NCBI GenBank assembly: GCA_964016885.1
Contig: OZ024757.1
Location: 43,648,001 to 43,712,000, forward strand
From: Eledone cirrhosa
Lineage: Eukaryota
Reading direction: 5' to 3'
DNA length: 64,000 bases
Part shown: positions 6 to 62,371 of the stretch, one piece after another
Position numbering within the stretch: position 1 is the stretch's first letter
Layout: each line of letters begins with the position of its first letter
The notes under the pieces: generated by a model
The model's database searches: none
The model's input: only the letters and a program-made list of their open reading frames with translations
Told to the model about the DNA's origin: nothing
Made by a program: the position numbers and the translations under genes

Positions 6-118
6 AAAAAGAGTAGGAGATAACTCGACAAGAGCGGAGAGGGTGAGATTCGAACCATGTAAAGTCGTTGGCTCCTGAACTTCGTAAGCGGGGCTGCTAC
101 TGACTGAGCAGCGCCGGC
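6..118 (-). ncRNA. tRNA-derived Pol III cassette (A box, B box, T5 terminator); not a canonical tRNA
   Basis: The minus strand reads GCCGGCGCTGCTCAGTCAGTAG (A-box-like) ... TTACGAA ... GGTTCGAATCT (B box) ... CTCTTTTT. Acceptor and T stems do not pair. Confidence 0.45.
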
Positions 119-3142: not shown

Positions 3143-3450
3143 AATATTATTATTGTTTATTAGGTCAGGTGGATTGGCCAGAACAATTCTACTCTTCTTT
3201 TTTAGATGTCACGATTTTTCATGGCATTCCTGAGATCATTAATCTCCAGCTGGAGATCCAGAGACATCTGATGTATGTAGGTGAACCTCAGTCATCCCAC
3301 TTGGCTCTTACTATGTTTAGGTATCCACCACAGGAGCCAGCTCATCAGGTCATCCTACCCTCAGCAGCAATGTCCAGCATCTATTGATTTCCGCTCCCTA
3401 GTTATTGTGGTAATCTTCGATATCTGGGAATATATTTCTTCTGCTTAAGG
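3143..3450 (-). mobile_element. Degenerate 3' end of an RTEX/RTE-like LINE (copies start near 9034, 14908, 24754, 34580, 44406, 54211)
   Basis: Minus-strand translation with stops: KITTITRERKSIDAGHCC*G*DDLMSWLLWWIPKHSKSQVG*LRFTYIHQMSLDLQLEINDLRNAMKNRDI*KRRV. This resembles the R.RR.R.AGH / LLW.P.HG.R..GRP..TY / AM.DR..W C-terminus and is followed by a (TAA)-rich tail. Confidence 0.65.
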
Positions 3451-3523
3451 GAGTAATAAATATATAGTTTTAAAAAAAACATATATATACACACACATAT
3501 ATATATGTTGTCATTTATAAGAG

Positions 3524-3662
3524 TTCTCTATCAAAAGCCTTCTCTATGTCCAAAGCTAAGTATAGTGGCTTATTTTTCTCTAAGAACCTCTTTTGTAGTT
3601 GTCTCACTAAGAAGAGGGCATCTGTTGCACTTTTCAGCGGCACAAAACCAAACTGCATCTCA
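3524..3662 (-). mobile_element. Internal RT fragment of an RTE LINE (in all units; cut at the 3641-equivalent position in type B)
   Basis: EMQFGFVPLKSATDALFLVRQLQKRFLEKNKPLYLALDIEKAFDR is homologous to the RTE ORF at 17215-18471. Confidence 0.85.
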
Positions 3663-3712
3663 TACACATACATACATATACATACATACATACATATACA
3701 CATACATACATA

Positions 3713-4067
3713 CATCATCATCATCATCATCATCATCATTTCGTTTTAAGTCCGCTTTTTCCCTGCTTGTAAGGGTGGGACGGGAACTGATTCTGGCTTG
3801 ATTTCTACAGCTGGATGCCCTTCCTAACACCAACCTCATTTACAGTGAGTGCTGAGTGCTTTTTTGCCGTGGCACCTCCACGACCACTTTGCAGTGGAAT
3901 GATATTGACCCCAGTCCCTATCATCTCATTTCTACAGCTGAGTAAACTGGAGCAATGTGAAATAAAGTGTCTTGCTCAAGGAAACAACACATCACCCGGT
4001 CTGAGAATTGAACTCACAACCTTTCGATTGCCAGGCCAATGCTCGAACCACTAAGCCATGTGCCTCC
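3713..4067 (-). mobile_element. tRNA-headed CORE-like SINE with RTE-derived tail and (ATG)n end
   Basis: Minus strand: GGAGGCACATGGCTTAGTGG (A box), GAGTTCAATTC (B box), CCTTGAGCAAGACACTTTATTTCACATTGCTCCAGTTTACTCAGCTGTAGAAATGAG (CORE-like), GGTGTTAGGAAGGGCATCCAGCTGTAG, CCCGTCCCACCCTTACAAGCAGGGAAAAAGCGGAC, then (ATG)n. Confidence 0.85.
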
Positions 4068-4543
4068 ATATACATATACATATACATACACATACATATA
4101 TATATACATACATACATATATACACATACATACATACACATACATACACATATACATACATATACATACATAGATATATATATATACATAATATAAATAT
4201 ATATACATACACATACATAAGCATATACACATAAGTATATATACATATACACACGTATATATACATATACATACATACATATATACACATACATACATAT
4301 ATACATACATACACACATATATACATATACACATACATACATATACATACATATACACATACATACATATATATATATACATACACACACATATATACAT
4401 ACACACACATATATACAAACACATACATATACACATATATACACATACATACACATACATATACATACATATACACATATACACTCATATATACATATAC
4501 ATACATACACACACATACATACATATATACATATACATACATA
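4068..4543. repeat. Compound (CA/TA/CATA)n microsatellite (copy at 9959-10434)
   Basis: ~475 bp of low-complexity alternating purine-pyrimidine sequence. Confidence 0.95.
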
Positions 4544-4544
4544 A

Positions 4545-5091
4545 AGACAAATCCACCTCATGGACGAGAATGCAAGGGCTCCTCCTCTTTGTTTCGGCCG
4601 CGGATGGCTAACCCTAACCCCATCCCCGCTCCCCACCGCTCCCAACCTCCAAACGCAATCCAAAACTTCAGAGTTGGTACCATTAATGTAGGCACCTTAT
4701 AGGGTGGCTCTAACGAGGTTGTAGAAATGCTTGAACGTAAGGAGGTCGATGTTTGTTGTATTCAAGAGACCAGGTGGAGGGGTGGGTCTGCTAGATTCAT
4801 CGTGGGTAAAGAACGATGCTATACGCTTTTCTGTGTGGCAAATGACAATGGGCTGGGTATACACATACCACCCCACCACCCCACCGCAAAGTGGTCGTGG
4901 AGGCGCCGCGGCAAAAAAGCACCCAGCCCACACTGTAAAGCTGACGTGGAGGTGCCACGGAAAAAAAAAAGCACCCAGCACTCACTGCAAACGGGGTTGG
5001 CGTCAGGAAGGGCACCCAGCTGTAGAAACCAATCCAGAATCAGCTCCCACCCCACCCTTGCAAGCATGGAAAAGCGGACGTATGATGAAGT

Positions 5092-5095
<4 letters not shown>
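4545..5095 (+). mobile_element. Internally deleted (bipartite) RTE: N-terminal APE endonuclease fragment fused to the 3' tail
   Basis: [43 protein letters not shown]...NDNGLG (APE N-terminus), then hairpin repeats, GGCGTCAGGAAGGGCACCCAGCTGTAG and CCCACCCTTGCAAGCATGGAAAAGCGGACGTATGATGA. Confidence 0.85.
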
Positions 5096-5144
<49 letters not shown>

Positions 5145-5653
5145 TATATATATACACATATATATATACACACATATATATCAGTGTACATATATATATA
5201 CATATATATATATATATAAATGAATATTTATTCAATTTAAAGCGCCAATTATCTATATATAACAAGATATGAATTTTTCTAGGGATGGGGAAATTTTCAG
5301 TTTGGTTTTTATATTTTCACTTCATTTTTTACTTTCTATTTAATACAGTCTTTGATCCAATATAATCCTGACAGTATTTGAACCAGTTTACCTCATATAT
5401 ATGTATGCACACACAACACTCAAGTTTCGCCATCTACTGCTATTTCATTCATATTTATTGTTTAATTAACTCTGGTCTAATTCATCAACTATTGTTAATT
5501 ATATTATTACGTAGATTTCTTATAAAATCTAGTGCATATATACGTGTATATATACAGGGAGACACTGTGTAATAGATGTAAAGAGAGTTATAGAAGTAAA
5601 GAGAGGGGGAGAAATAAGCGGTAGATAGAGTAATAGATGTAAAGAGAGGGTTA

Positions 5654-5830
5654 GAACGTTCAACTTGACAGTCAGTACAATGTTCAGCATGGTAGCCAGT
5701 ACATATGCCAACTACCCAACCGGCCAGCCAGCCGCATATGCGGTTGACTGGCCAGTTGGGCGGTTGGTATGTGGAACGTTCAACTACGCAGTCAGTACCA
5801 AAGTTCAACATTGTAGCCAGTGCATATGCC
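5654..5830. other. Direct repeat / 72-nt hairpin / direct repeat module (hairpin 5702-5773; hairpin copies at 11576, 21365, 31191, 41017, 50855, 62084)
   Basis: CATATGCCAACTACCCAACCGGCCAGCCAGCCGCAT|ATGCGGTTGACTGGCCAGTTGGGCGGTTGGTATGTG pairs at 33 of 36 positions, 4 of them G-T. It is flanked by two ~56-bp diverged repeats GAACGTTCAACT...GTAGCCAGT(A/G)CATATGCC. Confidence 0.9.
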
Positions 5831-5876
5831 GATCGCCGCGCCCTCTTTGCTCTATTTTAATGACCTGGAACTAAGT

Positions 5877-5989
5877 AAAAAGAGTAGGAGATAACTCGAC
5901 AAGAGCGGAGAGGGTGAGATTCGAACCATGTAAAGTCGTTGGCTCCTGAACTTCGTAAGCGGGGCTGCTACTGACTGAGGAGCGCCGGC
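5877..5989 (-). ncRNA. tRNA-derived Pol III cassette, copy 2
   Basis: As 6-118, with one substitution in the A box. Confidence 0.42.
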
Positions 5990-6770
5990 AGCAAGGCAAA
6001 TCGCGCATAAAATAACGCTTACATCGACAAAAAAAAAAAAAAAATTTCAATGTTGCACTCTTGTTTGTTGTTCTTTTATTTTACGTAAACATTTCGCTGC
6101 TCTAGCCTCTTATTTCCTATTAGATTACACTTAATTCCATTAAACATTCATTCTTAGTCTCGTGGTAAACTATTTCATCTATATTTATATCGCTGTTACA
6201 GCCTTTTATTTCTACATCTATCACCTATAGCCACTGTTACGCCGGTAGTATAAGTAGCTTTATAACAAGAAACGATGATATAACTCCACAAAATGTCTTC
6301 TTCAGCAAGACACTTCACTTCATATTGCTCCAGTACACCGAGTTACACATAGACAGATACATACATACATACACAGATAGAAATGAGAGGTAGATAGAGT
6401 AAAAGATTTAAAGAGAGTGTGAGAAGTACGAGTTAGATAGTGTAAAAGATTTAAAGAGAGGGTGAGAGTGTGACACACATTTATCTGTCTATCTCTCTCT
6501 ATTTTAACACCGGTCGTTATAATTAGTTTTATAACACCGCTATATTACCGACATGAAAGAGGTAAATAATTATTTCTTAAATGTTTAGAACATGTTTCTC
6601 TTGTCTTCTTAAATGTATAGAACATGTTTCTTATTTATATTCTTAACATAGCTACGACCTTATCTCATTTACTGGTCTCTACTTTTAGGGCTTTGCTGGT
6701 CCCATGTGCCCTCCATGAAGACACACTCGCCCCTTCTCTCTCAGTCTCCGTACTAATTACTACACATACG

Positions 6771-8961
6771 TATATATATTTATTTTAAGAAACCTTAATG
6801 ACAAATAATATAAGGTGTTTGTAAAGTGGGGAAGAGTAGTTTTACGGTGGGGTTGTTATATAGATATCGTTTTTGCAGTGGGGTCGTGACTGGCGTATAA
6901 TAATGAGTCACTGTTGATGTATATACAAATCATGTTTTGAATATAAGTGAAGTTATTTAAGAGATTTAGTTGTTTTGTATACATTCATAACGGTACGCGA
7001 TGGGACCCACCCACAGCCCCGGCGGACAGAATGGAGAAGGCGTTTCCCCGGAGCACGGCAAGGGAGACGCGCTGGAAAAGCCACTCCAACTCGCGGGGCT
7101 CACACCTGCGGCTGGCCAGCTCAGCGCCTATGGTGGTGAGTAAGGAGGTAGCCCTGGGGCCGAGGACACCAGAAGTCTCCACTTCCAGGGGTACGACCGC
7201 AAACCTGTCGGAGAGTGAACGATATGTGAGGAGTTTGGCCCCCTCAGCCTGACGTGCAGCAGAACCTGGGCCAGTCGCAGACTGCACCAGGTTGCGGCTG
7301 CAGAAAGTGTCGGTGCAAGTGGCATCCCAGACGAGGGGTTTGCCACCGCGGAACGGGAAGATGGTCATGCCATCTAGCCTTTTGCCGTCCCCTCGAGCTG
7401 GGAAGGGAAGCCTGCAGCGTCCAAGCCATGCTTAATGACTTCGTTGAGGGCAGCATGGCGTGGATTGCAGGTGGAGGCCGAAAGAGTCCATGGTGGAACG
7501 GCAGCGACATTGGTGTGAGGCCGAGCCTCAGGGAAACGCCGATGCGCAAGCTATTGTTGTCTAGCTGCGTGCGAGTGGAGAAGGAGGGCAGGGCATGGAG
7601 CCAGGCCCCACTGTGGGGTTTGGAGGCTGCACGAAAACAAACAAGGCGGTGCTGGTCGAGCTGGCACGTGAGCCTGTCTGAGGCCAGGCTGCACTGGATG
7701 GCATCCCAAGTGTGTTGGGGGGGACTTGACGTCAACAGGGGGAGAAGGAGGAGGAACGTCTACTGGGCTAAGTCCCAGCCGGTCCCACGTCTCACAGGCG
7801 GCCACGCGTTCTCTGAACACAGAGGGTTCTGTTGTGTTTTGAAGAACCCTGCTGAAGAGGACGTGGTACGAGGTTACCGACGAAAGATATGCCGGCAAAG
7901 CTAGTGAGATCGGGGACTGGAGGCGAAGGCCGCCATACCTGACAGGTAAAGTTGCATATCTCATCGGCTGCTGCTCGGATACAAGTTTAGGTGTAGCACA
8001 GAGTGTATAGAGGAGCTTCGGCATGGCGTAGCAGTTCCTCAGCAGAAAGAGAACTGGGTGGCCATCAATCAAGCCCAGTCGGCTCGTGAGAGTCTGGACT
8101 TGATGGAGGAGCGGATGGCCGGCGGGTGGATCGGTGAGGGCATCCTCTTTGGGGGGTCACCTGAACCTGGCGGAGAATGGACCGCACGTCCAAGACGGAG
8201 ACTGCAAAGCTTGCAGCATCGAGGCTGACATTCACCACCTCCGACTTGGCTGAGTTGACCTGGAGGTCGATTCCCGCCAGGGCAGGAACCACCGATTGAA
8301 GGTCATGGCAGAACGCCTGTACGGGCCCACCCAAAGTAGCATCATCCAGATACCAAACGTTGAGAGGGGCCGTTATACTCCAGGCGATGTGGTCAATACC
8401 AAGGGTGAACAGGAGGGGTCCCAAAGGGTTGCCCTGTTGGATCCCAGTAGCCAAGGGTATGACCGTATCAGCAGCATGGCGCATGCTTGGGGCTCCATAT
8501 GACAGGTAGGCAGAGGGGGCTCGGCTGAGGCAGGCCTCGAGCAGATGATCCCAGCGTAAAGAGTTGAAGGCATTCCTCATGTCAAACTTGACAATGAGGT
8601 GGCTGGAGGCCCTGGATGCCGGTTCCGAGTGTTACGGACTTGCAGATTACCTTGGCAGCCAGCCTCCGGAAGACATTGCCCACAGCAATGGGGCGTATGC
8701 CATCCTCTTTCTTCCTGAGAGCGGTGAGGCTGGCCGAAAAAAAGAGGCCTCGAGCATAAGAGTCCAGGGCGCCATGGATGAGCCTATTGGTGAGCGCCAC
8801 AATTGCACTCAGAAGGCGGCGCCCGGCCTCAGCGGAGAGGGGAGATATCAACTCCTTGAGGAGGCCTGGTCAGAGACCATCAACATCTCCGCAGCTGCTA
8901 GCTGGGAAGGACCTGATGGCGGACATGATGTCTGCATCAGAAGCCACAAGGAGCAAGTGTG
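6771..8961 (-). mobile_element. CRE-clade retrotransposon relic, copy 2 (type A)
   Basis: ORFs 6985-7368, 7244-7735, 7551-8072, 8065-8580 and 8582-8851 carry the same motifs. Confidence 0.9.
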
Positions 8962-9603
8962 GATTACAATACAAAACCTCTGAGAATGATTTCTAAGATA
9001 TTTCACCATAATTAATTTTCATCAATATATATTAATATTATTATTGTTTATTAGGTCAGGTGGATTGGCCAGAACAATTCTACTCTTCTTTTTTAGATGT
9101 CACGATTTTTCATGGCATTCCTGAGATCATTAATCTCCAGCTGGAGATCCAGAGACATCTGATGTATGTAGGTGAACCTCAGTCATCCCACTTGGCTCTT
9201 ACTATGTTTAGGTATCCACCACAGGAGCCAGCTCATCAGGTCATCCTACCCTCAGCAGCAATGTCCAGCATCTATTGATTTCCGCTCCCTAGTTATTGTG
9301 GTAATCTTCGATATCTGGGAATATATTTCTTCTGCTTAAGGGAGTAATAAATATATAGTTTTAAAAAAAACATATATATACACACACATATATATATGTT
9401 GTCATTTATAAGAGTTCTCTATCAAAAGCCTTCTCTATGTCCAAAGCTAAGTATAGTGGCTTATTTTTCTCTAAGAACCTCTTTTGTAGTTGTCTCACTA
9501 AGAAGAGGGCATCTGTTGCACTTTTCAGCGGCACAAAACCAAACTGCATCTCATACACATACATACATATACATACATACATACATATACACATACATAC
9601 ATA

Positions 9604-11750: not shown

Positions 11751-11863
11751 AAAAAGAGTAGGAGATAACTCGACAAGAGCGGAGAGGGTGAGATTCGAAC
11801 CATGTAAAGTCGTTGGCTCCTGAACTTCGTAAGCGGGGCTGCTACTGACTGAGCAGCGCCGGC
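11751..11863 (-). ncRNA. tRNA-derived Pol III cassette, copy 3
   Basis: As 6-118. Confidence 0.45.
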
Positions 11864-14835: not shown

Positions 14836-15768
14836 GATTACAATACAAAACCTCTGAGAATGATTTCTAAGATATTTCACCATAATTAATTTTCATCAAT
14901 ATATATTAATATTATTATTGTTTATTAGGTCAGGTGGATTGGCCAGAACAATTCTACTCTTCTTTTTTAGATGTCACGATTTTTCATGGCATTCCTGAGA
15001 TCATTAATCTCCAGCTGGAGATCCAGAGACATCTGATGTATGTAGGTGAACCTCAGTCATCCCACTTGGCTCTTACTATGTTTAGGTATCCACCACAGGA
15101 GCCAGCTCATCAGGTCATCCTACTCTCAGCAGCAATGTCCAGCATCTATTGATTTCCGCTCCCTAGTTATTGTGGTAATCTTCGATATCTGGGAATATAT
15201 TTCTTCTGCTTAAGGGAGTAATAAATATATAGTTTAAAAAAAAACATATATATACACACACATATATATATGTTGTCATTTATAAGAGTTCTCTATCAAA
15301 AGCCTTCTCTATGTCCAAAGCTAAGTATAGTGGCTTATTTTTCTCTAAGAACCTCTTTTGTAGTTGTCTCACTAAGAAGAGGGCATCTGTTGCACTTTTC
15401 AGCGGCTTAATTAATTAATGAGGTTTAATTAATGAGGAATTTTGAGGTATTTATAACAATTATTAATTATTTCATTACTGAGATATCATTTGAAGGACTT
15501 ACTAATGTTTTTATTTATTAATTATTTTATTAGTAACTTAACATGTGGTTCTTGTATAAAATTATGTTGGAAGATTTTAGGAAGATGCTATGTAGCCGGT
15601 CGCGGTAAAATAGACGCCCAGGCTATGTAGCCGGTAAGAGTGTCAGACTCCATGTGTTGCGGCCCTTTATGGTCTGAGTTAAGACAATTTAAAATCTTTT
15701 CCACCATCAATTGTTAAAAAACAAGTTAAAATCATTTTGTCGTCCATTTGTAACGTACGTTACACTTT

Positions 15769-16505
15769 AGTTACATACACATATACTATGTTACATACAC
15801 ACATCTACTGTGTTACATACACACACATCAACTGGGTTATATACACACACATCTACTGCGTTACATACACATCTACTGTGTTACACACACATCTACTGTG
15901 TTACATACACACACATCTACTGAGTTACATACACACACATCTACTGTGTTACATACACACACATCTTCTGTGTTACATACACACATCTACTATGTTACAT
16001 ACACACATCTACTGTGTTACATACACACACCTGTGTTACATACACACACATCTACTGAGTTACATACACACAGATCTACTGTGTTACATACACACACATC
16101 TACTGTGTTACACACATCTTCTATGTTACATACACACAATCTACTGTGTTACATACACACATCTACTGAGTTACATACACACACATCTACTGAGTTACAT
16201 ACACACACATGTACTGTGTTACATACACACATCTACTGTGTTACATACATACACATCTACTGTGTTACATACATACACATCTACTGTTACATACACACAT
16301 CTACCGTGCTACACACACACATCTACCGTGTTACACACACACATCTACCGTGTTACACACACACATCTACCGTGTTACACACACACATCTACTGAGTTAC
16401 ATACACATATACTGAGTTACATGCAAACACACATCTACTCTGTTACATATACACATCTACTGTGTTACATACACATCTACTGTGATACACACACACACAT
16501 CTACT
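15769..16505. repeat. ~20-24-bp minisatellite CTACTGTGTTACATACACAC(AC)AT
   Basis: More than 30 tandem copies; source of the spurious HTH-rich ORFs. Confidence 0.95.
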
Positions 16506-17334
16506 CATACATATTCATAAATAGACACACATTATACAAATAATTATTACATACACACACATCTCTGTAATAATTCAGGAAGGAAGGGGCTGGTGAAACG
16601 CTATAGCAATGTGTGTGTGTTGTGTACCTTTCAGGTTTACCGGTTTCGTAGCCTATTTGAAGATTTTATTATAATTATGAACCTTATAATTCAATTAATT
16701 ATGAATAATTTTGAGCTATTTATCACAATTGTTAGTTAATTACTAACATAGTAACTTACCATATGGTTGTTATATAGAATTTTGTTGGAAGACTTTAATT
16801 TAGATAGGAACCATTTCCATAGTACGAGAACTAATTTTGGCTGGGTTTCTACCAAAAGGGTTAATGAAGAATTTTGAACAATTTACTAAAATTATTAATT
16901 ATTTCATTACTAAGATAATGTGTGAATACACAATTATATGTGTGTATATATATATAAACAGTATATATATATATAGTATATATATATATAAACAGTATAT
17001 ATATATATATAGTATATATATATATAAACAGTATATATATAGTATACAAAAGATGTAGTGGGATAGTGTGTAGTCTTAAGACAAGTCTGTCCAGATAGCT
17101 GCGCTGTAACTTACACTTATTGGGACTGTGTGTTGGCAAGCAGGCCTGTATTTTGGGATCTAGCTGGTCCATTATGAGGGAGGTCTGGTTAGTTGGCAGC
17201 ACCATGCCTTACTTGTGGTATATGTATGTATAGAAATAAGTTATTGTATATGCATAACTGTCCATCTATATGTATACATGTATGTTTACTTATATCTTTG
17301 CATACATATATACATTTTCAGATGTATACACGTA

Positions 17335-19254
17335 ATGGTCACCCGGATAGTAAACCAAGTCATACAGAATGGGGTTGTTCTGAAGGACTGGCGTAGCAGC
17401 ATCATCATTAACTGTTACAAGGGTAAAGGAGATGCCCTAGATAGGAGTAACTATAGAGGCATTAAATTAATCGACCAGGTCATGAAGGTCACGGAAAAAG
17501 TAATAGCGCAACTAATCAGAGAGAGAATTGATCTAGATGAAATGCAGTTCGGGTTTGTGTCAGGTAAAAGTACCACAGACGCTCTTTTCATTGTACGACA
17601 ACTACAGGAGAAGTACCTAGTTAAAAGTAAACCCCTATACTTAGCTTTTGTTCACTTGGAGAAAGCCTTCGACAGAGTCCCCCGTTCCATTATCTGGTGG
17701 GCTCTTAGAAAACTAGGTGTTGAGGAATGGCTTGTGAGAGCTATACGAGCCATGTATAAAGAAACAGTCAGCAAGGTTAGAATTAACAACGAATATAGTG
17801 AAGAGTTTAGCGTAAAAGTTGGTGTTCATCAGGGCTCCGTCCTTAGCCCCCTACTATTTATTATTGCCCTTCAGGCTATAACAGTGGAGTTCAAGACCGG
17901 CTGCCCATGGGAACTCCTATACGCAGATGATCTAACGCTCATAGCTGAATCAATGGCCGAGCTAGAGAAGAAATTCCAAACATGGAAGCAAGGCCTAGAA
18001 TCAGAAGGCCTTAAAATTAACCTGGCTAAGACTAAAGTTCTAGTTTGTAGGAAAGAAAATAAGGCGCCGGTCCCTTACGGGAAATGGCCATGCTCAGTGT
18101 GTAGGAAAGACGTAGGTAGAAACTCCATTTTATGTCCCAAATGCAAAGTATGGGTTCATAAAAGATGTAGTGGGATCACAGGTAAGCTAACTAAGAACAT
18201 AGATTTTACATGTGGCCGGTGCTCTGGTGCAATAAGTAGCAGCAAGTGCCCACAAAATACTAGCTCTTTCAATTGCGCAGAGGGTTCTATAGAAATAGTG
18301 GACAGCTTCCGTTACCTGGGTGACAAAATCAGCAGTGGGGGAGGGTGCTCTGAAAGTACAGTAGCTAGAGTCAGAACTGGATGGAAAAAGTTCAGAGAGC
18401 TTATACCACTATTAGCCGCTAAAGGGTTCTCCCTAAAAATGAAAGGCAGGTTGTATGATGCCTGCATATGAACAGCAATGTTGCATGGCAGTGAGACCTG
18501 GGCATTGTGTGCAGAGGATATACGCAGACTAGAGAGGAACGAAGCTTGCATGCTTCGCTGGATGTGTAATAGTAATATATGTGAACGGCAAAGCATAAAC
18601 GAACTAAGGGAAAAATTAGAAATAAGAGGGATCAGATGTTGTGTACTCGAGAGAAGACTACGTTGGTATGGTCCACGTGATGCGGATGAAAGACGACAGC
18701 TGTATAAAAAAAATGCAGGGCAATAAAGATAGACGGTAGCCACGGAGTAGGCAGACCCAGAAAAACCTGGGACGACTTGATAAATTCCGACCTCACACAC
18801 TTACACCTCTCCAAGACAATGTCACTGGACCGAGATCTTTGGCGGTACTCAGTAATAGAGAAGACCCGCCTTACCTAGATACAAAGTAAAACCTACTACA
18901 GTCAGTAGGCACCTCTAACAAAATACACCCCCACCCCATCCACACCGCCCCTTTCAATGTAAAGTTATGTTGGTGCCACAACATCCAGGCCGAAACAAAT
19001 GAGGTCGTGTAGGTGTCACGACAAAAAAAAAAAACACAGTCCACGCAGTAATGTGGCCGTGTAGGTAACACGGTAAAAACCTCTCAGTCCCACACTGTAA
19101 ATGCGGTTGGTGTTAGGAAGGGCATCCAGCTGTAGAAAACCCGCCAGACAGTCCTATGCGAGCAAGACAACCACTCTTGCCTCAAGTGGGAAAATTCCCG
19201 TCCAAACCCATGCAAGCGTGGAATATGGACGTTAAACGATGATGATGATGATGA

Positions 19255-19258
<4 letters not shown>
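17335..19258 (+). mobile_element. 5'-truncated RTE-clade LINE (RT with embedded PHD finger), decayed; long 3' UTR and (GAT)n tail
   Basis: YKGKGDALDRSNYRGIKL, QFGF, AFV(H)LEKAFDRVPR, GVHQGSVLSPLLF, YADD, FRYLG. Premature stop at 18469-18471 and a later frameshift; GRPRKTW near the end; (GAT)7 at 19238-19258. Confidence 0.95.
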
Positions 19259-19289
<31 letters not shown>

Positions 19290-19292
<3 letters not shown>

Positions 19293-20414
19293 CTTTGACA
19301 TTTCTTAGAAAAAAAATGAAAAAGTTTTGTGAGAACCCCAATGTTTATTTATTTTATTTTATTTTTAAATAAAATTAATAACATTAATTTTATTTTGAAA
19401 TTAGGTTTATAAATATTAATTATCAGCAGACCTTTGTAGCAGTCTTGGCGGCTTAGTGGGAAGTACCAGAGATGGTGAGGTCCTTGTCTGTAGGTTCAAT
19501 CCTGGTCTGGGAGTTCAATCATTGCTGTAATGTGTCCTGTTAATCTTTTTTTAAATTTTCCTCAGAAAAAACTGAAAATCTTTGGTGAGAACCCCAATGT
19601 CTATTTATCTAATATAATTTAATTTATTTTATTTTATTTTACTTTAGTTAAATTGTCAAAACCACTGGTGATCTAAAGTTAGAGGAGACAGATAAAATAG
19701 ACATATTGTCTCCTCAACCTTTAGATCTTCAGTGTTTTCGACAATTTAACTAAAATAAAAAATTAAATTCAATATAATTAAATAAATAGGGGTTCTCTTT
19801 TTCAAAGAGATATAGAAAGAAAATTATAAAAGATTAACATGACACCTTACATGTATCTCATGGACCAGGATTGAACCTGAGTCCCCAATTCAACCCTCAG
19901 ACCAGGATTGAACACCCAGAACAGGATCTCACCATCTCTGGTACTTCCCACTAAGCTACCGAGACTGATACAAAGATGTACTGAAATTTAATATTTATAA
20001 ACCTACTTTCAAAATAAAATTAAAAATAAAATATATATATATATATATTCCTTTGACATTTCTTAGAAAAAAGAACTGAAAAAGTTTTGTGAGAACGCCA
20101 ATGTCTATTTATTTTATTTTATTTTTAATTAAATTAGTTATATTTTGAAAGTAGGTTTATAAATATTAATTTTCAATAGACCTTTGTAGCAGTCTTGGTG
20201 GCTTAGTGGGAAGTACCAGAGATGGTGAGATCCTTGTCTGTAAGTTCAATTCTTGCTTGGAGACATGTCTAATGTGTCCTATTAATCTTTTTTTAATTTT
20301 CCTTTTACATCTCTTAGAAATAACTGAAAATCTTTGGTGAGAACCCCAATGTCTATTTATCTAATATAATTAATTTAATTTAATTTAATTTAATTTTTAT
20401 TTTAGTGAAACCAC
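19290..20414. mobile_element. AT-rich foldback element (inverted arms 19385-20022, each with a tRNA-like A/B box) plus a tandem partial arm at 20048-20414
   Basis: Centre TTTAGTTAAATTGTCAAAACCACTG..GATCTAAAG..GAGGAGACA / TGTCTCCTC..CTTTAGATC..CAGTGTTTTCGACAATTTAACTAAA. GCTTAGTGGGAAGTACCAGAGATGGTGAG is mirrored by CTCACCATCTCTGGTACTTCCCACTAAGC. Bounded by (TA)n. Confidence 0.8.
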
Positions 20415-20757
20415 TGTTGTATTCAAGAGACCAGGTGGAGGGGTGGGTCTGCTAGATTCATCGTGGGTAAAGAACGGTGCTATGAACTTTTCTGGGTGGG
20501 AAATGACAATGGGCTGGGTATACACATACCACCCCACCACCCCACCGTAAAGTGGTCGTGGAGGCGCCACGGCAAAAAAGCACCCAGCCCGCTCTGTAAA
20601 GCTGACGTGGAGGTGCCACGTAAAAAAGAAAAGCACCCAGCACTCACTGCAAACTGGGTTGGCGTCAGGAAGGGCACCCAGCTGTAGAAACCAATCCAGA
20701 ATCAGCTCCCACCCCACCCTTGCAAGCATGGAAAAGCGGACGTATGATGAAGTTGAT
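20415..20757 (+). mobile_element. Bipartite RTE, 5'-clipped in type-B units (copies start near 30255, 40081, 49907, 61136)
   Basis: Begins abruptly at TGTTGTATTCAAGAGACC (CCIQET), directly after the B-specific block. Confidence 0.85.
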
Positions 20758-20857
20758 ATATATATATATATATATTAGTATATATATACACATACATATG
20801 TACACATATACACATACATATATATATATATATACACACACATATATATCAGTGTAC

Positions 20858-20894
<37 letters not shown>

Positions 20895-21539
20895 AATGAA
20901 TATTTATTCAATTTAAAGCGCCAATTATCTATATATAACAAGATATGAATTTTTCTAGGGATGGGGAAATTTTCAGTTTGTTTTTATATTTTCACTTCAT
21001 TTTTTACTTTCTATTTAATACAGTCTTTGATCCAATATAATCCTGACAGTATTTGAACCAGTTTACCTCATATATATGTATGCACACACAACACTCAAGT
21101 TTCGCCATCTACTGCTATTTCATTCATATTTATTGTTTAATTAACTCTGGTCTAATTCATCAACTATTGTTAATTATATTATTACGTAGATTTCTTATAA
21201 AATCTAGTGCATATATACGTGTATATATACAGGGAGACACTGTGTAATAGATGTAAAGAGAGTGGGAGATAGAGTTATAGAAGTAAAGAGAGGGAGAGAA
21301 ATAAGCGGTAGATAGAGCAATAGATGTAAAGAGAGGGTTAGAACGTTCAACTTGACAGTCAGTACATATGCCAACTACCCAACCGGCCAGCCAGCCGTAT
21401 TTGCGGTTGACTGGCCAGTTGGGCGGTTGGTATGTGGAACGTTCAACTATGCAGTCAGTACCAAAGTTCAACATTGTAGCCAGTGCATATGCCGATCGCC
21501 GCGACCTCTTTGCTCTATTTAAATGACCTGGAACTAAGT

Positions 21540-21652
21540 AAAAAGAGTAGGAGATAACTCGACAAGAGCGGAGAGGGTGAGATTCGAACCATGTAAAGTC
21601 GTTGGCTCCTGAACTTCGTAAGCGGGGCTGCTACTGACTGAGCAACGCCGGC
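21540..21652 (-). ncRNA. tRNA-derived Pol III cassette, copy 4
   Basis: As 6-118; starts GCCGGCGTTGCTCAGTCAGTAG. Confidence 0.45.
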
Positions 21653-22432
21653 AGCAAGGAAAATCGCGCATAAAATAACGCTTATATCGAGAAAATAAAA
21701 CAAAAATTTCAATGTTGCACTTTTGTTTGTTGTTCTTTTATTTTACGTAAACATTTCGCTGCTCTAGCCTCTTATTTCCTATTAGATTACACTTAATTCC
21801 ATTAAACATTCATTCTTAGTCTCGTGGTAAACTATTTCATCTATATTTATATCGCTGTTACAGCCTTTTATTTCTACATCTATCACCTATAGCCACTGTT
21901 ACGCCGGTAGTATAAGTAGCTTTATAACAAGAAACGATGATATAACTCCACAAAATGTCTTCTTCAGCAAGACACTTCACTTCATATTGCTCCAGTACAC
22001 CGAGTTACACATAGACAGATACATACATACATACACAGATAGAAATGAGAGGTAGATAGAGTAAAAGATTTAAAGAGAGTGTGAGAAGTACGAGTTAGAT
22101 AGTGTAAAAGATTTAAAGAGAGGGTGAGAGTGTGACACACATTTATCTGTCTATCTCTCTCTATTTTAACACCGGTCGTTATAATTAGTTTTATAACACC
22201 GCTATATTACCGACATGAAAGAGGTAAATAATTATTTCTTAAATGTTTAGAACATGTTTCTCTTGTCTTCTTAAATGTATAGAACATGTTTCTTATTTAT
22301 ATTCTTAACATAGCTAGGACCTTATCTCATTTACTGGTCTCTACTTTTAGGGCTTTGCTGGTCCCATGTGCCCTCCATGAAGACACACTCGCCCCTTCTC
22401 TCTCAGTCTCCGTACTAATTACTACACATACG

Positions 22433-24681
22433 TATATATATTTATTTTAAGAAACCTTAATGACAAATAATATAAAGTGTTTGTAAAGTGGGGAAGAGTA
22501 GTTTTACGGTGGGGTTGTTATATAGATATCGTTTTTGCAGTGGGGTCGTGACTGGCGTATAATAATGAGTCACTGTTGATGTATATACAAATCATATTTT
22601 GGATATAAGTGAAGTTATTTAAGAGATTTAGTTGTTTTGTATACATTCCAGTTGTTGTCTCCCTGTTTCTTCTTCAACAACTATAACGGTACGCGATGGG
22701 GCCCACCCACAGCCCCGGCGGACAGAATGGAGAAGGCGTTTCCCCGGAGCACGGCAAGGGAGACGCGCTGGAAAAGCCACTCCAACTCGCGGGGCTCACA
22801 CCTGCGACTGGCCAGCTCAGCGCCTATGGTGGTGAGTAAGGAGGTAGCCCTGGGGTCGAGGACACCAGAAGTCTCCACTTCCAGGGGTACGACCGCAAAC
22901 CTGTCGGAGAGTGAACGATATGTGAGGAGTTTGGCCCTCTCAGCCTGACGTGCAGCAGAACCTGGGCCAGTCGCAGACTGCACCAGGTTGCGGCTGCAGA
23001 AAGTGTCGGTGCAAGTGGCATCCCAGACGAGGGGTTTGCCACCGCGGAACGGGAAGATGGTCATGCCATCTGGCCTTTTGCCGTCCCCTGGAGCTGGGAA
23101 GGGAAGCCTGCAGCGTCCAAGCCATGCTTAATGATTTCGTTGAGGGCAGCATGGCGTGGATTGCGGCTGGCACTGTGGCGACAGGAAAGCGGGTGGAGGC
23201 CGAAAGAGTCCATGGTGGAACGGCAGCGACATTGGTGTGAGGCCGAGCCTCAGGGAAACGCCGATGCGCAAGCTATGGTTGTCTAGCTGCGTGCGAGTGG
23301 AGAAGGAGGGCAGGGCATGGAGCCAGGCCCCACTGTGGGGTTTGGAGGCCGCACGAAAACAAACAAGGCGGTGCTGGTCGAGCTGGCACGTGAGCCTGTC
23401 TGAGGCCAGGCTGCACTGGATGGCATCCCAAGTGTGTTGGGGGGACTTGACGTCAACAGGGGGAGAAGGAGGAGGAACGTCTACTGGGCTAAGTCCCAGC
23501 CGGTGCCACGTCTCACAGGCGGCCACGCGTTCTCTGAACACAGAGGGTTCTGTTGTGTTTTGAAGAACCCTGCTGAGGTGGACGTGGTACGAGGTTACCG
23601 ACGAAAGATACGCCGGCAAAGCTAGTGAGATCGGGGACTGGAGGCGAAGGTCGCCATACCTGATAGGTAAAGTTGCATATCTCATCGGCTGCTGCTCGGA
23701 TACAAGTCTGGGTGTAGCACAGAGTGTATAGAGGAGCTTCGGCATGGCGTAGCAGTTCCTCAGCAGAAAGAGAACTGGGTGGCCATCAATCAAGCCCAGT
23801 CGGCTCGTGAGAGTCTGAACTTGATGGTGGAGCGGATGGCCGGCGGGTGGATCGGTGAGGGCATCCTCTTTGGGGGTCACCTGAACCTGGCGGAGAATGG
23901 ACCGCACGTCCAAGACGGAGACTGCAAAGCTTGCAGCATCGAGGCTGACATTCACCACCTCCGACTTGGCTGAGTTGACCTGGAGGTCGATTCCCGCCAG
24001 GGCAGGAACCACCGATTGAAGGTCATGGCAGACCGCCTGTACGGGCCCACCCAAAGTAGCATCATCCAGATACCAAACGTTGAGAGGGGCCGTTATACTC
24101 CGGGCGATGTGGTCAATACCAAGGGTGAACAGGAGGGGTCCCAAAGGGTTGCCCTGTTGGATCCCAGTAGCCAAGGGTATGACCGTATCAGCAGCATGGC
24201 GCATGCTTGGGGCTCCATATGACAGCTAGGCAGAGGGGGCTCGGCTGAGGCAGGCCTCGAGCAGATGATCCCAGCGTAAAGAGTTGAAGGCATTCCTCAT
24301 GTCAAACTTGACAATGAGGTGGCTGGAGTCCCTGGATGCCGGTTCCGAGTGTTACGGACTTGCAGGTTACTTTGGCAGCCAGCCTCCGGAAGACATTGCC
24401 CACAGCAATGGGGCGTATGCCACCCTCTTTCTTCCTGAGAGCGGTGAAGCTGGCCGAAAAAAAGAGGCCTCGAGCATAAGAGTCCAGGGCGCCATGGATG
24501 AGCCTATTGGTGAGCGCCACAATTGCACTCAGAAGGCGGCGCCCGGCCTCAGCGGAGAGGGGAGATATCAACTCCTTGAGGAGGCCTGGTCAGAGACCAT
24601 CAACATCTCCGCAGCTGCTAGCTGGGAAGGACCTGATGGCGGACATGATGTCTGCATCAGAAGCCACAAGGAGCAAGTGTG
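22433..24681 (-). mobile_element. CRE-clade retrotransposon relic, copy 4 (type B, less decayed)
   Basis: 358-aa RT ORF at 23128-24204; the CCHC knuckle (CRC..H...C) and RPDG motif are intact in alternate frames. Confidence 0.92.
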
Positions 24682-25614
24682 GATTACAATACAAAACCTC
24701 TGAGAATGATTTCTAAGATATTTCACCATAGTTAATTTTCATCAATATATATTAATATTATTATTGTTTATTAGGTCAGGTGGATTGGCCAGAACAATTC
24801 TACTCTTCTTTTTTAGATGTCACGATTTTTCATGGCATTCCTGAGATCATTAATCTCCAGCTGGAGATCCAGAGACATCTGATGTATGTAGGTGAACCTC
24901 AGTCATCCCACTTGGCTCTTACTATGTTTAGGTATCCACCACAGGAGCCAGCTCATCAGGTCATCCTACTCTCAGCAGCAATGTCCAGCATCTATTGATT
25001 TCCGCTCCCTAGTTATTGTGGTAATCTTCGATATCTGGGAATATATTTCTTCTGCTTAAGGGAGTAATAAATATATAGTTTAAAAAAAAACATATATATA
25101 CACACACATATATATATGTTGTCATTTATAAGAGTTCTCTATCAAAAGCCTTCTCTATGTCCAAAGCTAAGTATAGTGGCTTATTTTTCTCTAAGAACCT
25201 CTTTTGTAGTTGTCTCACTAAGAAGAGGGCATCTGTTGCACTTTTCAGCGGCTTAATTAATTAATGAGGTTTAATTAATGAGGAATTTTGAGGTATTTAT
25301 AACAATTATTAATTATTTCATTACTGAGATATCATTTGAAGGACTTACTAATGTTTTTATTTATTAATTATTTTATTAGTAACTTAACATGTGGTTCTTG
25401 TATAAAATTATGTTGGAAGATTTTAGGAAGATGCTATGTAGCCGGTCGCGGTAAAATAGACGCCCAGGCTATGTAGCCGGTAAGAGTGTCAGACTCCATG
25501 TGTTGCGGCCCTTTATGGTCTGAGTTAAGACAATTTAAAATCTTTTCCACCATCAATTGTTAAAAAACAAGTTAAAATCATTTTGTCGTCCATTTGTAAC
25601 GTACGTTACACTTT

Positions 25615-31365: not shown

Positions 31366-31478
31366 AAAAAGAGTAGGAGATAACTCGACAAGAGCGGAGA
31401 GGGTGAGATTCGAACCATGTAAAGTCGTTGGCTCCTGAACTTCGTAAGCGGGGCTGCTACTGACTGAGCAACGCCGGC
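31366..31478 (-). ncRNA. tRNA-derived Pol III cassette, copy 5
   Basis: As copy 4. Confidence 0.45.
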
Positions 31479-41191: not shown

Positions 41192-41304
41192 AAAAAGAGT
41201 AGGAGATAACTCGACAAGAGCGGAGAGGGTGAGATTCGAACCATGTAAAGTCGTTGGCTCCTGAACTTCGTAAGCGGGGCTGCTACTGACTGAGCAACGC
41301 CGGC
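41192..41304 (-). ncRNA. tRNA-derived Pol III cassette, copy 6
   Basis: As copy 4. Confidence 0.45.
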
Positions 41305-51029: not shown

Positions 51030-51142
51030 AAAAAGAGTAGGAGATAACTCGACAAGAGCGGAGAGGGTGAGATTCGAACCATGTAAAGTCGTTGGCTCCT
51101 GAACTTCGTAAGCGGGGCTGCTACTGACTGAGCAACGCCGGC
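51030..51142 (-). ncRNA. tRNA-derived Pol III cassette, copy 7
   Basis: As copy 4. Confidence 0.45.
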
Positions 51143-58728: not shown

Positions 58729-59247
58729 CTTTGACATTTCTTAGAAAAAAAATGAAAAAGTTTTGTGAGAACCCCAATGTTTATTTATTTTATTTTATTT
58801 TTAAATAAAATTAATAACATTAATTTTATTTTGAAATTAGGTTTATAAATATTAATTATCAGCAGACCTTTGTAGCAGTCTTGGCGGCTTAGTGGGAAGT
58901 ACCAGAGATGGTGAGGTCCTTGTCTGTAGGTTCAATCCTGGTCTGGGAGTTCAATCATTGCTGTAATGTGTCCTGTTAATCTTTTTTTAAATTTTCCTCA
59001 GAAAAAACTGAAAATCTTTGGTGAGAACCCCAATGTCTATTTATCTAATATAATTTAATTTATTTTATTTTATTTTACTTTAGTTAAATTGTCAAAACCA
59101 CTGGTGATCTAAAGTTAGAGGAGACAGATAAAATAGACATATTGTCTCCTCAACCTTTAGATCTTCAGTGTTTTCGACAATTTAACTAAAATAAAAAATT
59201 AAATTCAATATAATTAAATAAATAGGGGTTCTCTTTTTCAAAGAGAT

Positions 59248-60528
59248 CATCATCATCATCATCATCATCATTTTACGTCCGCTTTTCCCTGCTTGCAAGG
59301 GTGGGACGGGTCTTATTCAGCACAGCATCTCTCCACTCGTCACGGTCCCTCGTCATCTCCACCGTGAGCTTCAATGATCTGAGGTCTGTTCTCACCACCT
59401 CCGCCCATGTTTTTCGTGGTCTACCTCTACCACGTCTTCCTTCAACTGGCATTTCCTGGCACTTCTTCACCCATCGGTCATCCTCCATGCGCATCACATG
59501 TCCATACCACCTCAGTCTCCTCTCCCGTACACTACATTCTATCCCTCTCAGACACAGTTTCTCTCTCAACACATTTATGCTGGGTCGTTCACGCACATTT
59601 ACACTGCACATCCAACGGAGCATGCTTGCCTCATTTCTCTCCAGCCGTCGCATATCTTCTGCGGTAGCTGCCCATGTCTCACTACCATGCAGCATCGCGC
59701 TCCTCACACAGGCATCATACAACCGGCCTTTCGTACGCAGGGAGAAACCCTTCTTCGTCAACAGAGGAAGCAGCTCCCTAAACTTCTTCCAACCCGTCCT
59801 TATTCTAGATACTATGGCCTCGGAACACCCTCCTCCCATGCTAATCTGATCTCCTAGGTACCGGAAGCTATCCACCACTTCTATAGCGCCCTCTCGCATT
59901 TGAAAAATGTGTCTATCAGTGCGACTTCTACTGTCTAATTTCCCTGTACATCTACTGCATACATATTTCTCCCTACCTGTTAGTTTGCCTGCTATCCCGC
60001 TACATCTCTTGTGTACCCAGGACCTACATTGTGTGCATTTTATAGAATTTATGCCAGTTCCTTTTCTGCATATCGAACATGGCCATTTCCCTGACGGAAT
60101 CAGGGTTTTGTCCTCTTTTCTACTCATCAACACTTTTGTCTTAGCGAGGTTCACTCTCAGTCCTCTTGCTTCCAACTGCTGTTTCCATAGCCGGAATTTA
60201 TTCTCTAGCTCCTCTACTGATTCTGCCATAAGAGCCAGATCGTCAGCATAGAGAAGTTCCCATGGACAGCCAGTCTTAAACTCCTCTGTTATGGCTTGGA
60301 GGACTATAATGAACAAGAGCGGGCTGAGGACCGAACCCTGATGTACTCCTACTTGTATCTGGAATTCCTCACTAAACTCCATTCCTACCCTGACTTTACT
60401 GAGAGTACCTCTGTACAAAGTTTGCACTGTCCTTACAAGCCATTCCTCAACACCCAGCTTCCTTAGGGACCACCAGATGACAGATCGGGGTACCCTATCA
60501 AAGGCCTTCTCTAGGTCAACAAAGGCTA
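59248..60528 (-). mobile_element. Young 5'-truncated RTE LINE insertion unique to unit 7 (second RTE family)
   Basis: Uninterrupted frame from LAFVDLEKAFDRVPR to ...KTRPTLASREKRT*, followed at once by (TGA)n. AGAT occurs at both junctions (59244-59247 and 60529-60532). The empty site is present in units 3-6. Confidence 0.96.
59273..60528 (-). CDS. RTE reverse transcriptase C-terminal half with PHD finger (open frame, 5'-truncated)
   Basis: ORF-track 384-aa ORF at 59273-60427, still open upstream to the truncation point; GVHQGSVLSPLLF, YADD, CSIC..CTQC..HKRC..CSRC, FRYLG, RLRWYGHVMR, RGRGRPRKTW. Confidence 0.85.
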
Positions 60529-61578
60529 AGATATAGAAAGAAAATTATAAAAGATTAACATGACACCTTACATGTATCTCATGGACCAGGATTGAACCTG
60601 AGTCCCCAATTCAACCCTCAGACCAGGATTGAACACCCAGAACAGGATCTCACCATCTCTGGTACTTCCCACTAAGCTACCGAGACTGATACAAAGATGT
60701 ACTGAAATTTAATATTTATAAACCTACTTTCAAAATAAAATTAAAAATAAAATATATATATATATATATTCCTTTGACATTTCTTAGAAAAAAGAACTGA
60801 AAAAGTTTTGTGAGAACGCCAATGTCTATTTATTTTATTTTATTTTTAATTAAATTAGTTATATTTTGAAAGTAGGTTTATAAATATTAATTTTCAATAG
60901 ACCTTTGTAGCAGTCTTGGTGGCTTAGTGGGAAGTACCAGAGATGGTGAGATCCTTGTCTGTAAGTTCAATTCTTGCTTGGAGACATGTCTAATGTGTCC
61001 TATTAATCTTTTTTTAATTTTCCTTTTACATCTCTTAGAAATAACTGAAAATCTTTGGTGAGAACCCCAATGTCTATTTATCTAATATAATTAATTTAAT
61101 TTAATTTAATTTAATTTTTATTTTAGTGAAACCACTGTTGTATTCAAGAGACCAGGTGGAGGGGTGGGTCTGCTAGATTCATCGTGGGTAAAGAACGGTG
61201 CTATGAACTTTTCTGGGTGGGAAATGACAATGGGCTGGGTATACACATACCACCCCACCACCCCACCGTAAAGTGGTCGTGGAGGCGCCACGGCAAAAAA
61301 GCACCCAGCCCGCTCTGTAAAGCTGACGTGGAGGTGCCACGTAAAAAAGAAAAGCACCCAGCACTCACTGCAAACTGGGTTGGCGTCAGGAAGGGCACCC
61401 AGCTGTAGAAACCAATCCAGAATCAGCTCCCACCCCACCCTTGCAAGCATGGAAAAGCGGACGTATGATGAAGTTGATATATATATATATATATATTAGT
61501 ATATATATACACATACATATGTACACATATACACATACATATATATATATATATACACACACATATATATCAGTGTAC

Positions 61579-62258: not shown

Positions 62259-62371
62259 AAAAAGAGTAGGAGATAACTCGACAAGAGCGGAGAGGGTGAG
62301 ATTCGAACCATGTAAAGTCGTTGGCTCCTGAACTTCGTAAGCGGGGCTGCTACTGACTGAGCAACGCCGGC
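62259..62371 (-). ncRNA. tRNA-derived Pol III cassette, copy 8
   Basis: As copy 4. Confidence 0.45.

What the first reader, a model, noticed from the sequence alone, without database searches (positions are those of the whole stretch)
5654..5989. Invariant non-TE core of the array: Pol III cassette followed by a direct-repeat-flanked 72-nt hairpin (candidate tandem ncRNA gene)
Seen: this part of the unit is not explained by LINE or SINE debris and is kept in both unit types. On the minus strand it reads: a TATA-like GATATAAG about 35 nt upstream (most units), a tRNA-like A box, B box GGTTCGAATCT, TTTTT, and about 100 nt further a 36-bp near-perfect hairpin. Known: Pol III genes (5S, tRNA, vault RNA) often form tandem arrays. 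tRNA-like-promoter plus hairpin cassettes make miRNAs in murine gammaherpesvirus 68. RLE-type retrotransposons such as CRE and R2 prefer multicopy RNA-gene arrays. Inference: the amplified payload may be an undescribed ~113-nt Pol III RNA, with or without a read-through hairpin RNA.
Basis: partly seen in the sequence, partly recalled or inferred. Interest (0 to 1): 0.7.

Follow-up and report, generated by a model that had tools for sequence, protein, structure and literature searches.

The report
Decayed tRNA-like cassette in chromosome-end repeat
A worn tRNA-like start signal and a DNA palindrome sit inside a 6-10 kb repeat copied about 330 times, mainly in arrays near chromosome ends; they are no better conserved than the broken jumping-gene pieces beside them, so they are likely passengers rather than a new RNA gene, though whether they make RNA is untested.

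Summary
The motifs are real: A box, B box and T5 occur together in 0 of 2000 shuffles, and the hairpin has z -9.3. The cassette is not a dispersed SINE: 306-332 copies genome-wide, and all copies inspected lie in a 5.9/9.8-kb tandem unit. Arrays sit within 0.5 Mb of nine chromosome ends, all facing inward, with some interstitial copies.

The 'invariant core' reading fails. In nine diverged copies the cassette (pi 0.025) and hairpin (0.022) vary as much as the dead LINE (0.019-0.020). 187 copies lack the A-box T8. The hairpin shows no compensatory change and no strand preference. The 113-nt RNA folds no better than shuffles and matches no Rfam family; the genome's vault-like and tRNA-Sec genes lie elsewhere. 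T5 precedes the hairpin, unlike herpesvirus TMERs.

Best reading: a tRNA-derived promoter relic carried in a subtelomeric macrosatellite, akin to amphibian tRNA-like tandem repeats (OAX, PolIII/TAN). Expression could not be tested.

The parts
5877..5989 (-). tRNA-like cassette (putative 113-nt Pol III unit); the cloverleaf is lost, only a D-arm-like stem remains in most copies
   Evidence: no ARAGORN or Rfam tRNA hit
5971..5982 (-). A-box-like 12-mer; 1 mismatch to the recalled consensus in T8 copies, 2 in C8 copies, 3 in this copy
5918..5927 (-). B box, consensus match
5877..5881 (-). T5 run, candidate Pol III terminator; lies in a stretch resembling the local purine-rich repeat
   Evidence: family D2 (84% over 19 nt; the longer alignment was not significant)
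6018..6025 (-). TATA-like word, mutated in this copy; not beyond chance
5702..5773 (.). 72-nt imperfect palindrome (29 of 36 Watson-Crick; all 7 differences between the arms are transitions)
5654..5709 (.). left direct repeat (two ~25-nt subrepeats; one is deleted in long units)
5774..5830 (.). right direct repeat (two 25-nt subrepeats)
5574..5655 (+). purine-rich degenerate repeat block, 79% like 6386-6467
6386..6467 (+). second purine-rich repeat block
5052..6877 (.). array-specific segment shared by the 5.9-kb, 9.8-kb and C4/C7 4.7-kb arrangements; contains the cassette
6985..8983 (-). broken non-LTR retrotransposon (RT in split frames; RLE/CRE-like by a recalled motif, clade not tested); boundaries approximate
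3642..9532 (.). one short macrosatellite unit (5.9 kb)
15407..25252 (.). one long macrosatellite unit (9.8 kb) with an extra RT+PHD LINE fragment and a 22-nt minisatellite
6..118 (-). cassette copy
11751..11863 (-). cassette copy
21540..21652 (-). cassette copy (long unit, T8)
31366..31478 (-). cassette copy (long unit, T8)
41192..41304 (-). cassette copy (long unit, T8)
51030..51142 (-). cassette copy (long unit, T8)
62259..62371 (-). cassette copy (long unit, T8)

Best explanation
The cassette is a decayed, likely tRNA-derived Pol III promoter and the hairpin an imperfect DNA palindrome; both lie in a 5.9/9.8-kb tandem unit of about 330 copies and are likely carried along as unselected passengers. 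Shown: motifs, copy number, array positions and polarity, and lack of extra conservation. Inferred: a patchwork of transposon debris and unique AT-rich DNA was duplicated as a block, spread between chromosome ends by ectopic recombination (which keeps polarity), and expanded and homogenised by unequal exchange. Inferred: copies with an intact B box may bind TFIIIC or give some 113-nt transcript, without a selected RNA function.
For: Whole unit, not the cassette, is what is copied: all 10 outlying positions fetched on C1-C5 and C7 lie in unit-length or multi-kb copies; both unit types share 4.8 kb including the dead LINE. Arrays lie within 0.5 Mb of 9 chromosome ends (C5R, C6R, C8L, C9L, C10R, C13L, C13R, C18R, C19L), 9 of 9 facing away from the end; telomeric repeats end C5R, C6R, C9L and C18R. 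Nine diverged copies: pi 0.025 tRNA-like part, 0.022 hairpin, 0.019-0.020 LINE, 0.010 AT-rich flank. A box variable at 6 of 12 sites in 59 copies, against 8 of 43 between the boxes. All nine diverged copies have T8, yet 187 copies carry C8. Hairpin stem changes in 59 copies: 5 break a pair, 1 makes one, 1 neutral, 0 compensatory; one copy lost half the hairpin (L033). 113-nt fold z +0.26 (this copy) and -0.58 (long-unit copy). tRNA ancestry: colinear similarity to a native tRNA-like gene family, score 30-34.5 vs 16+-3, 0-1 of 500 shuffles for 7 of 10 such loci.
Against: Copies are young (about 2% diverged), so the conservation test has little power: B box variable at 1 of 10 sites and the 36 nt after it at 2 of 36, the tail at pi 0.008. 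The B box and T5 are intact although the cloverleaf is long gone, which may mean they were kept before the amplification. The smallest segment shared by three arrangements is the 1.8-kb non-TE piece holding the cassette (C4 and C7 look like one event). No dispersed parent SINE was found. The T8-to-C change turns a G-U pair of the 5' stem into G-C (seen in sequence; one change). Functional arrays also carry decayed copies (own knowledge).
Confidence: 0.68

Rival explanations
1. An undescribed lineage-specific Pol III RNA gene of 113 nt is the selected payload, amplified for dosage like 5S or OAX arrays.
For: A box, B box and T5 beyond chance; B box 21-mer exact in 306 of about 332 copies; no dispersed parent family; cassette lies in the segment common to all arrangements; amphibian tRNA-like tandem repeats can be transcribed in vitro (PMC10702118, passages).
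Against: No excess conservation; A-box decay has spread; no significant fold; no Rfam family; units of 6-10 kb are mostly debris.
Confidence: 0.12
2. The B box acts as DNA: a TFIIIC-bound (ETC-like) boundary or nuclear-positioning element repeated along subtelomeres, with the A box dispensable.
For: B box better kept (1 of 10 sites variable) than A box (6 of 12); uniform polarity at 9 ends; ETC sites bind TFIIIC without polymerase and act as boundaries in yeast (PMC3395662, abstract start in listing only).
Against: The difference rests on few sites; long units hold other B-box matches from SINE debris; polarity is explained by recombination alone.
Confidence: 0.08
3. The array works like Drosophila TAS: a subtelomeric source of piRNAs or endo-siRNAs, with the palindrome feeding Dicer and the LINE fragments supplying anti-transposon guides.
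For: Subtelomeric complex repeat with fragments of abundant LINEs; TAS yield dual-strand piRNAs (PMC6043984, passages); 33-bp stem on either strand.
Against: No small-RNA data; stem changes mostly break pairs; this reading gives the Pol III cassette no role.
Confidence: 0.09
4. A TMER-like tRNA-miRNA gene: Pol III reads through, RNase Z cuts off the tRNA-like part and Dicer releases a miRNA from the hairpin.
For: Order promoter-then-hairpin; hairpin of pre-miRNA size; weak Rfam miRNA matches at 28 bits against cut-offs of 90, on both strands.
Against: T5 lies 104 nt before the hairpin; in TMER1 a terminator placed before the first stem-loop prevents its expression (PMC4337559, passages). No cloverleaf for RNase Z. 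Loop of 4-6 nt.
Confidence: 0.03

Closest known systems
Amphibian tRNA-like tandem repeats: newt PolIII/TAN, Xenopus OAX (satellite I), Rana/polIII (as reviewed in PMC10702118; abstract and passages read)
   Same: Tandem repeat holding a tRNA-related Pol III promoter-like segment with no matching dispersed SINE.
   Different: PolIII/TAN and Rana/polIII units are about 250-360 nt and PolIII/TAN is transcribed in vitro; here units are 5.9-9.8 kb, mostly LINE/SINE debris, carry a palindrome, and transcription is untested. No sequence homology was tested.
SINE-derived satellites of squamates (PMC10702118)
   Same: Pol III box-bearing tandem repeats with subtelomeric location.
   Different: They derive from an identifiable SINE family and have 67-150 nt units; no parent SINE was found here.
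Drosophila telomere-associated sequences (PMC6043984, passages read); human D4Z4 (recalled)
   Same: Complex satellite-like repeats proximal to telomeres, shared between chromosome ends.
   Different: No piRNA or chromatin data here; no intact protein gene like DUX4 (the ORFs scanned are TE fragments).
MHV68 TMERs (PMC4337559, passages read)
   Same: tRNA-like internal promoter upstream of a hairpin.
   Different: TMER stem-loops follow the tRNA-like part directly and are lost when a terminator precedes them; here T5 comes first and the cloverleaf is gone.
Vault RNA (RF00006) and tRNA-Sec (RF01852)
   Same: About 100-nt Pol III units with TATA and T-run.
   Different: The genome's own matches lie elsewhere and are not significantly similar to the cassette; no 5'/3' panhandle.

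Membership tests
tRNA gene | cloverleaf with paired acceptor, anticodon and T stems | tested here: not met
   ARAGORN 0; no RF00005 match at E<=10; folds
tRNA gene | A box, B box and downstream T-run | tested here: met
   (A box with 1 mismatch in T8 copies; 2-3 in C8 copies)
SINE / MITE | many dispersed, variably decayed copies with independent flanks | tested here: not met
   306-332 matches; outliers fetched are unit copies; only the first 100 places of each list were visible
SINE / MITE | target-site duplication and LINE-like tail or terminal inverted repeats | tested here: inconclusive
   no independent insertion to compare; none evident
vault RNA | Rfam RF00006 match and 5'/3' panhandle | tested here: not met
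tRNA-Sec | RF01852 match, UCA anticodon, 9/4 fold | tested here: not met
   (similarity reached by 50 of 500 shuffles)
TMER-type tRNA-miRNA | hairpin inside the Pol III transcript, before the terminator | tested here: not met
   T5 at 5881-5877 precedes hairpin 5773-5702
miRNA gene | ~22-nt reads from both arms with precise ends | not testable with these tools
   no RNA holder listed
miRNA gene | stem preserved by compensatory change, strand-specific fold | tested here: not met
   0 compensatory changes, 5 pair-breaking, in 59 copies (low divergence); plus strand folds as well
subtelomeric macrosatellite | head-to-tail multi-kb units, homogenised | tested here: met
subtelomeric macrosatellite | shared between chromosome ends with common polarity | tested here: met
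   9 of 9 ends with arrays within 0.5 Mb; interstitial arrays also exist on C11, copies on C3 and C7
tRNA-like Pol III tandem repeat (OAX, PolIII/TAN kind) | tRNA-related segment in a tandem unit without a dispersed SINE | tested here: met
tRNA-like Pol III tandem repeat (OAX, PolIII/TAN kind) | transcribed by Pol III | not testable with these tools
   inconclusive
ETC / TFIIIC boundary | TFIIIC binding and barrier activity | not testable with these tools
   needs ChIP and reporter assays

The most novel reading that the evidence does not exclude
A young, lineage-specific Pol III RNA gene, born from a decayed tRNA, has been amplified to about 330 copies at chromosome ends, all transcribing away from the telomere, where its RNA or its TFIIIC occupancy sets subtelomeric chromatin and occasional read-through makes a hairpin small RNA.
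Probability: 0.12. Interest if true: 0.65.

Novelty: new member of a known kind. Interest (0 to 1): 0.27.

Why it matters
As a passenger it is a modest addition: an undescribed multi-chromosome subtelomeric macrosatellite in a 3-Gb animal genome, useful as a marker of chromosome ends and perhaps of old fusion sites, and a caution that invariance inside a young array is not evidence of selection. If it were transcribed and conserved it would be a new Pol III RNA class tied to chromosome ends, and an invertebrate counterpart of the amphibian tRNA-like tandem repeats.

Tried and rejected
Expression: the look-up of sequencing runs listed 4 holders from 1 study, none on record as RNA: no RNA holder listed, no evidence either way. 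Run X2 (88 Mb of contigs) has one 1052-nt contig over 5235-6240 and almost no cover at 6352-6783. To learn whether X2 is RNA I laid it on a multi-exon actin-family gene; it showed no splice joint, but conserved genes may be filtered out, so its kind is unresolved and nothing is drawn from it. The contig runs through T5 and 250 nt upstream, so it is not the 113-nt RNA in any case.

Vault RNA and tRNA-Sec: rejected. Bacterial tRNA-Ser origin: the 21-mer at the cassette's 3' end matches 120+ prokaryotic loci, with ARAGORN calling tRNA-Ser in 27 of its hits, but upstream similarity is weak (mean z 0.45, best 3.5 among 118 loci chosen for that match); left as a lead only. One search used a pattern shifted by one base and its alignment part covered 5 loci only; redone. 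A search for a native tRNA with a similar 3' end found 0.

Long-range pairing of the A-box region with the direct repeats: appears in the MFE but z -0.26, and 131 of 1000 shuffles match as well. Cassette as a duplicate of 5571-5710: 64 of 1000 shuffles. Viral or metagenome copies: 0 exact matches. Octopus miRNA paper PMC9699675: 0 hits for six 12-mers in the supplements held, but its data archive is cut and the PDF was not searched, so this says nothing; main text not read. PF01775 search found nothing. PMC10886601 (Helenus/Ajax; abstract only): no LTR pair around the cassette, not pursued. One search's pair counts were inflated by misaligned L033 and were redone without it. Sampling 38 7-kb stretches about 150 kb from contig ends found the array in 3; a single sample can miss an array. 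Literature searches showed no paper on this repeat in their listings.

Full report
Setting. The window is C18:43.648-43.712 Mb of a 43.93-Mb contig in a 3.0-Gb animal genome whose contig ends carry TTAGGG repeats. The repeats look octopus-like to me; that is recalled and was not tested. The whole window is a tandem array of 5.9-kb and 9.8-kb units, 95-99% alike. Units are made of SINE pieces, microsatellites, a broken minus-strand non-LTR element (RVT_1; CRE-like by a recalled endonuclease motif), in long units a second RT+PHD LINE fragment, and about 1.8 kb specific to the array.

Observation. The minus strand shows a tRNA-like start at 5989, an A-box-like 12-mer, a consensus B box and T5. 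This arrangement appears in 0 of 2000 dinucleotide shuffles; the B box alone in 97; the TATA-like word is common (25% of random windows). The hairpin 5702-5773 is far beyond chance (z -9.3), has 29 of 36 Watson-Crick pairs and folds equally on both strands. The flanking direct repeats are four ~25-nt subrepeats. The region is not invariant: five of seven complete window copies lack 24 nt of the left repeat and have another loop, and the copy named in the finding has the weakest A box of the eight.

Known families. ARAGORN found 0 genes; Rfam found 0 at gathering and at E<=10 only generic hairpin matches far below cut-off. The genome has 14 over-cut-off vault RNA matches clustered on C3 and two tRNA-Sec genes on C23; the cassette is not significantly like either. 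Among the 16 native tRNA-like loci returned (only 63 candidates were scored), the closest are tRNA-like genes carried by a dispersed 1.7-kb element: 7 of those 10 loci score 30-34.5 against 16+-3, 0-1 of 500 shuffles. Their flanks share nothing with the array unit but simple repeats. So tRNA ancestry is likely, the donor unknown. The 113-nt RNA folds no better than shuffles (z +0.26; -0.58).

Copy number and place. A B-box 21-mer has 306 exact matches; an A-box 27-mer and a hairpin-arm 26-mer with up to 3 mismatches have 332 and 327, controls 0-1. By hand, a family 20% diverged would still show 18% of its copies in such a search, so more than about 150 such dispersed copies are unlikely; older families are not excluded. 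Only the first 100 places of each list were shown. All 10 outlying places fetched on C1-C5 and C7 are multi-kb copies of the unit. Arrays lie within 0.5 Mb of nine contig ends (C5R, C6R, C8L, C9L, C10R, C13L, C13R, C18R, C19L), with the cassette facing inward in 9 of 9. Older or more distant copies vary in direction (C1, C2, C4), and C11 has interstitial arrays at 32.7 and 35.0 of 53.9 Mb. Contig depth in run X1 is 3,300-4,900 on array-specific pieces against 9-15 on single-copy DNA. The tool warns that this is no copy number, but it fits a real array of some hundreds. Depth on the LINE's 3' part is 200,000-390,000, so that family is far more abundant than the array and gives no sign of being specific to it.

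Selection. In nine diverged copies, pairwise difference is 0.025 for the tRNA-like part, 0.008 for the tail, 0.022 for the hairpin, 0.012-0.053 for the direct repeats, 0.019-0.020 for the dead LINE and 0.007-0.010 for plain flanks. In 59 copies (28 of them picked as best matches, which biases towards sameness; L033 and three duplicates dropped; 20 copies fetched for their mismatches counted apart) variable sites are A box 6 of 12, B box 1 of 10, T5 2 of 5, between boxes 8 of 43, hairpin arms 7 of 66. Stem changes: 5 break a pair, 1 makes one, none is compensatory. All nine diverged copies have T at A-box position 8, but 187 copies now have C, at least 56% of about 332. One copy on C2 has lost half the hairpin and the left repeat. 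The test is weak because copies are young.

Mechanism. Shown: block duplication of the whole unit, shared polarity at ends, drift of variants through arrays. Inferred: ectopic recombination between ends and unequal exchange amplify and homogenise the unit, and the cassette and palindrome ride along. The change from an open loop in diverged copies to a perfectly palindromic centre in short units fits DNA-level palindrome correction (inference). Copies with T8 could still be weak Pol III templates ending at T5. The hairpin lies 104 nt beyond T5; in MHV68 TMER1 a terminator put before the first stem-loop prevents its expression (PMC4337559, passages), so a TMER-like route is unlikely.

Expression. 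No RNA holder was listed, and the kind of run X2 stayed unresolved. Transcription is untested.

Comparison and novelty. The closest kind is the amphibian tRNA-like tandem repeats without a parent SINE (PolIII/TAN, OAX, Rana/polIII) and subtelomeric SINE-derived satellites (PMC10702118, abstract and passages); by position, Drosophila TAS (PMC6043984, passages). It differs in its multi-kb, debris-filled unit and palindrome. Ten literature searches showed no description of this repeat in their listings, and the scan's index had no look-alike; the eight same-genome notes concern other repeats and did not change the reading. Verdict: a real, previously unnoted subtelomeric macrosatellite with a tRNA-derived promoter relic; passenger 0.68, functional Pol III RNA 0.12; interest 0.27.

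Noticed in passing
L260, L262-L270 (e.g. L264:158-1880; G000 C1-C5, C28): A dispersed ~1.73-kb element, 94-98% alike between copies, with ~175-bp inverted repeats, carries an intact-looking 73-nt tRNA gene whose anticodon varies between copies (GGC, AGC, GAC, GTC, GGT). Looks like a non-autonomous DNA transposon spreading a tRNA gene.
   Followed up: partly
L051-L060 (G000:C3:221.18-221.25 Mb): Cluster of 14 Rfam vault RNA matches over cut-off, two types, with upstream TATA, paired ends and T-run but no canonical B box. Possibly of interest for vault RNA evolution in invertebrates; one literature search showed nothing specific.
   Followed up: partly
L063-L065 (C4, C1, C17): Dispersed, partly decayed copies of tRNA-Sec besides the two intact genes on C23.
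   Followed up: no
L066-L072 (G000:C1:441.19-441.23 Mb): Tandem array of tRNA-Ser(TGA) genes with a 1.68-kb period near the end of C1.
   Followed up: no
L089, L097 (C11:32.7 and 35.0 Mb), L035 (C3:361.6 Mb), L039 (C7:65.8 Mb): Interstitial copies or arrays of the otherwise end-associated unit; they may mark former chromosome ends, as the genome has four contigs of 379-443 Mb beside many of 22-136 Mb.
   Followed up: no
window 59247-60529: A 1.28-kb LINE piece inserted in one unit only, in reverse to and about 69% like the resident RT+PHD fragment: a recent insertion into the array.
   Followed up: no
window 6208-6351: Short stretch with about five times the depth of the rest of the array-specific segment, so a separate dispersed repeat; 6170-6300 resembles 6480-6570 (1 of 1000 shuffles).
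   Followed up: partly
window 5648-5655: An 8-nt telomere-like word at the junction of the purine tract and the left direct repeat; mutated in one copy; may be chance.
   Followed up: no
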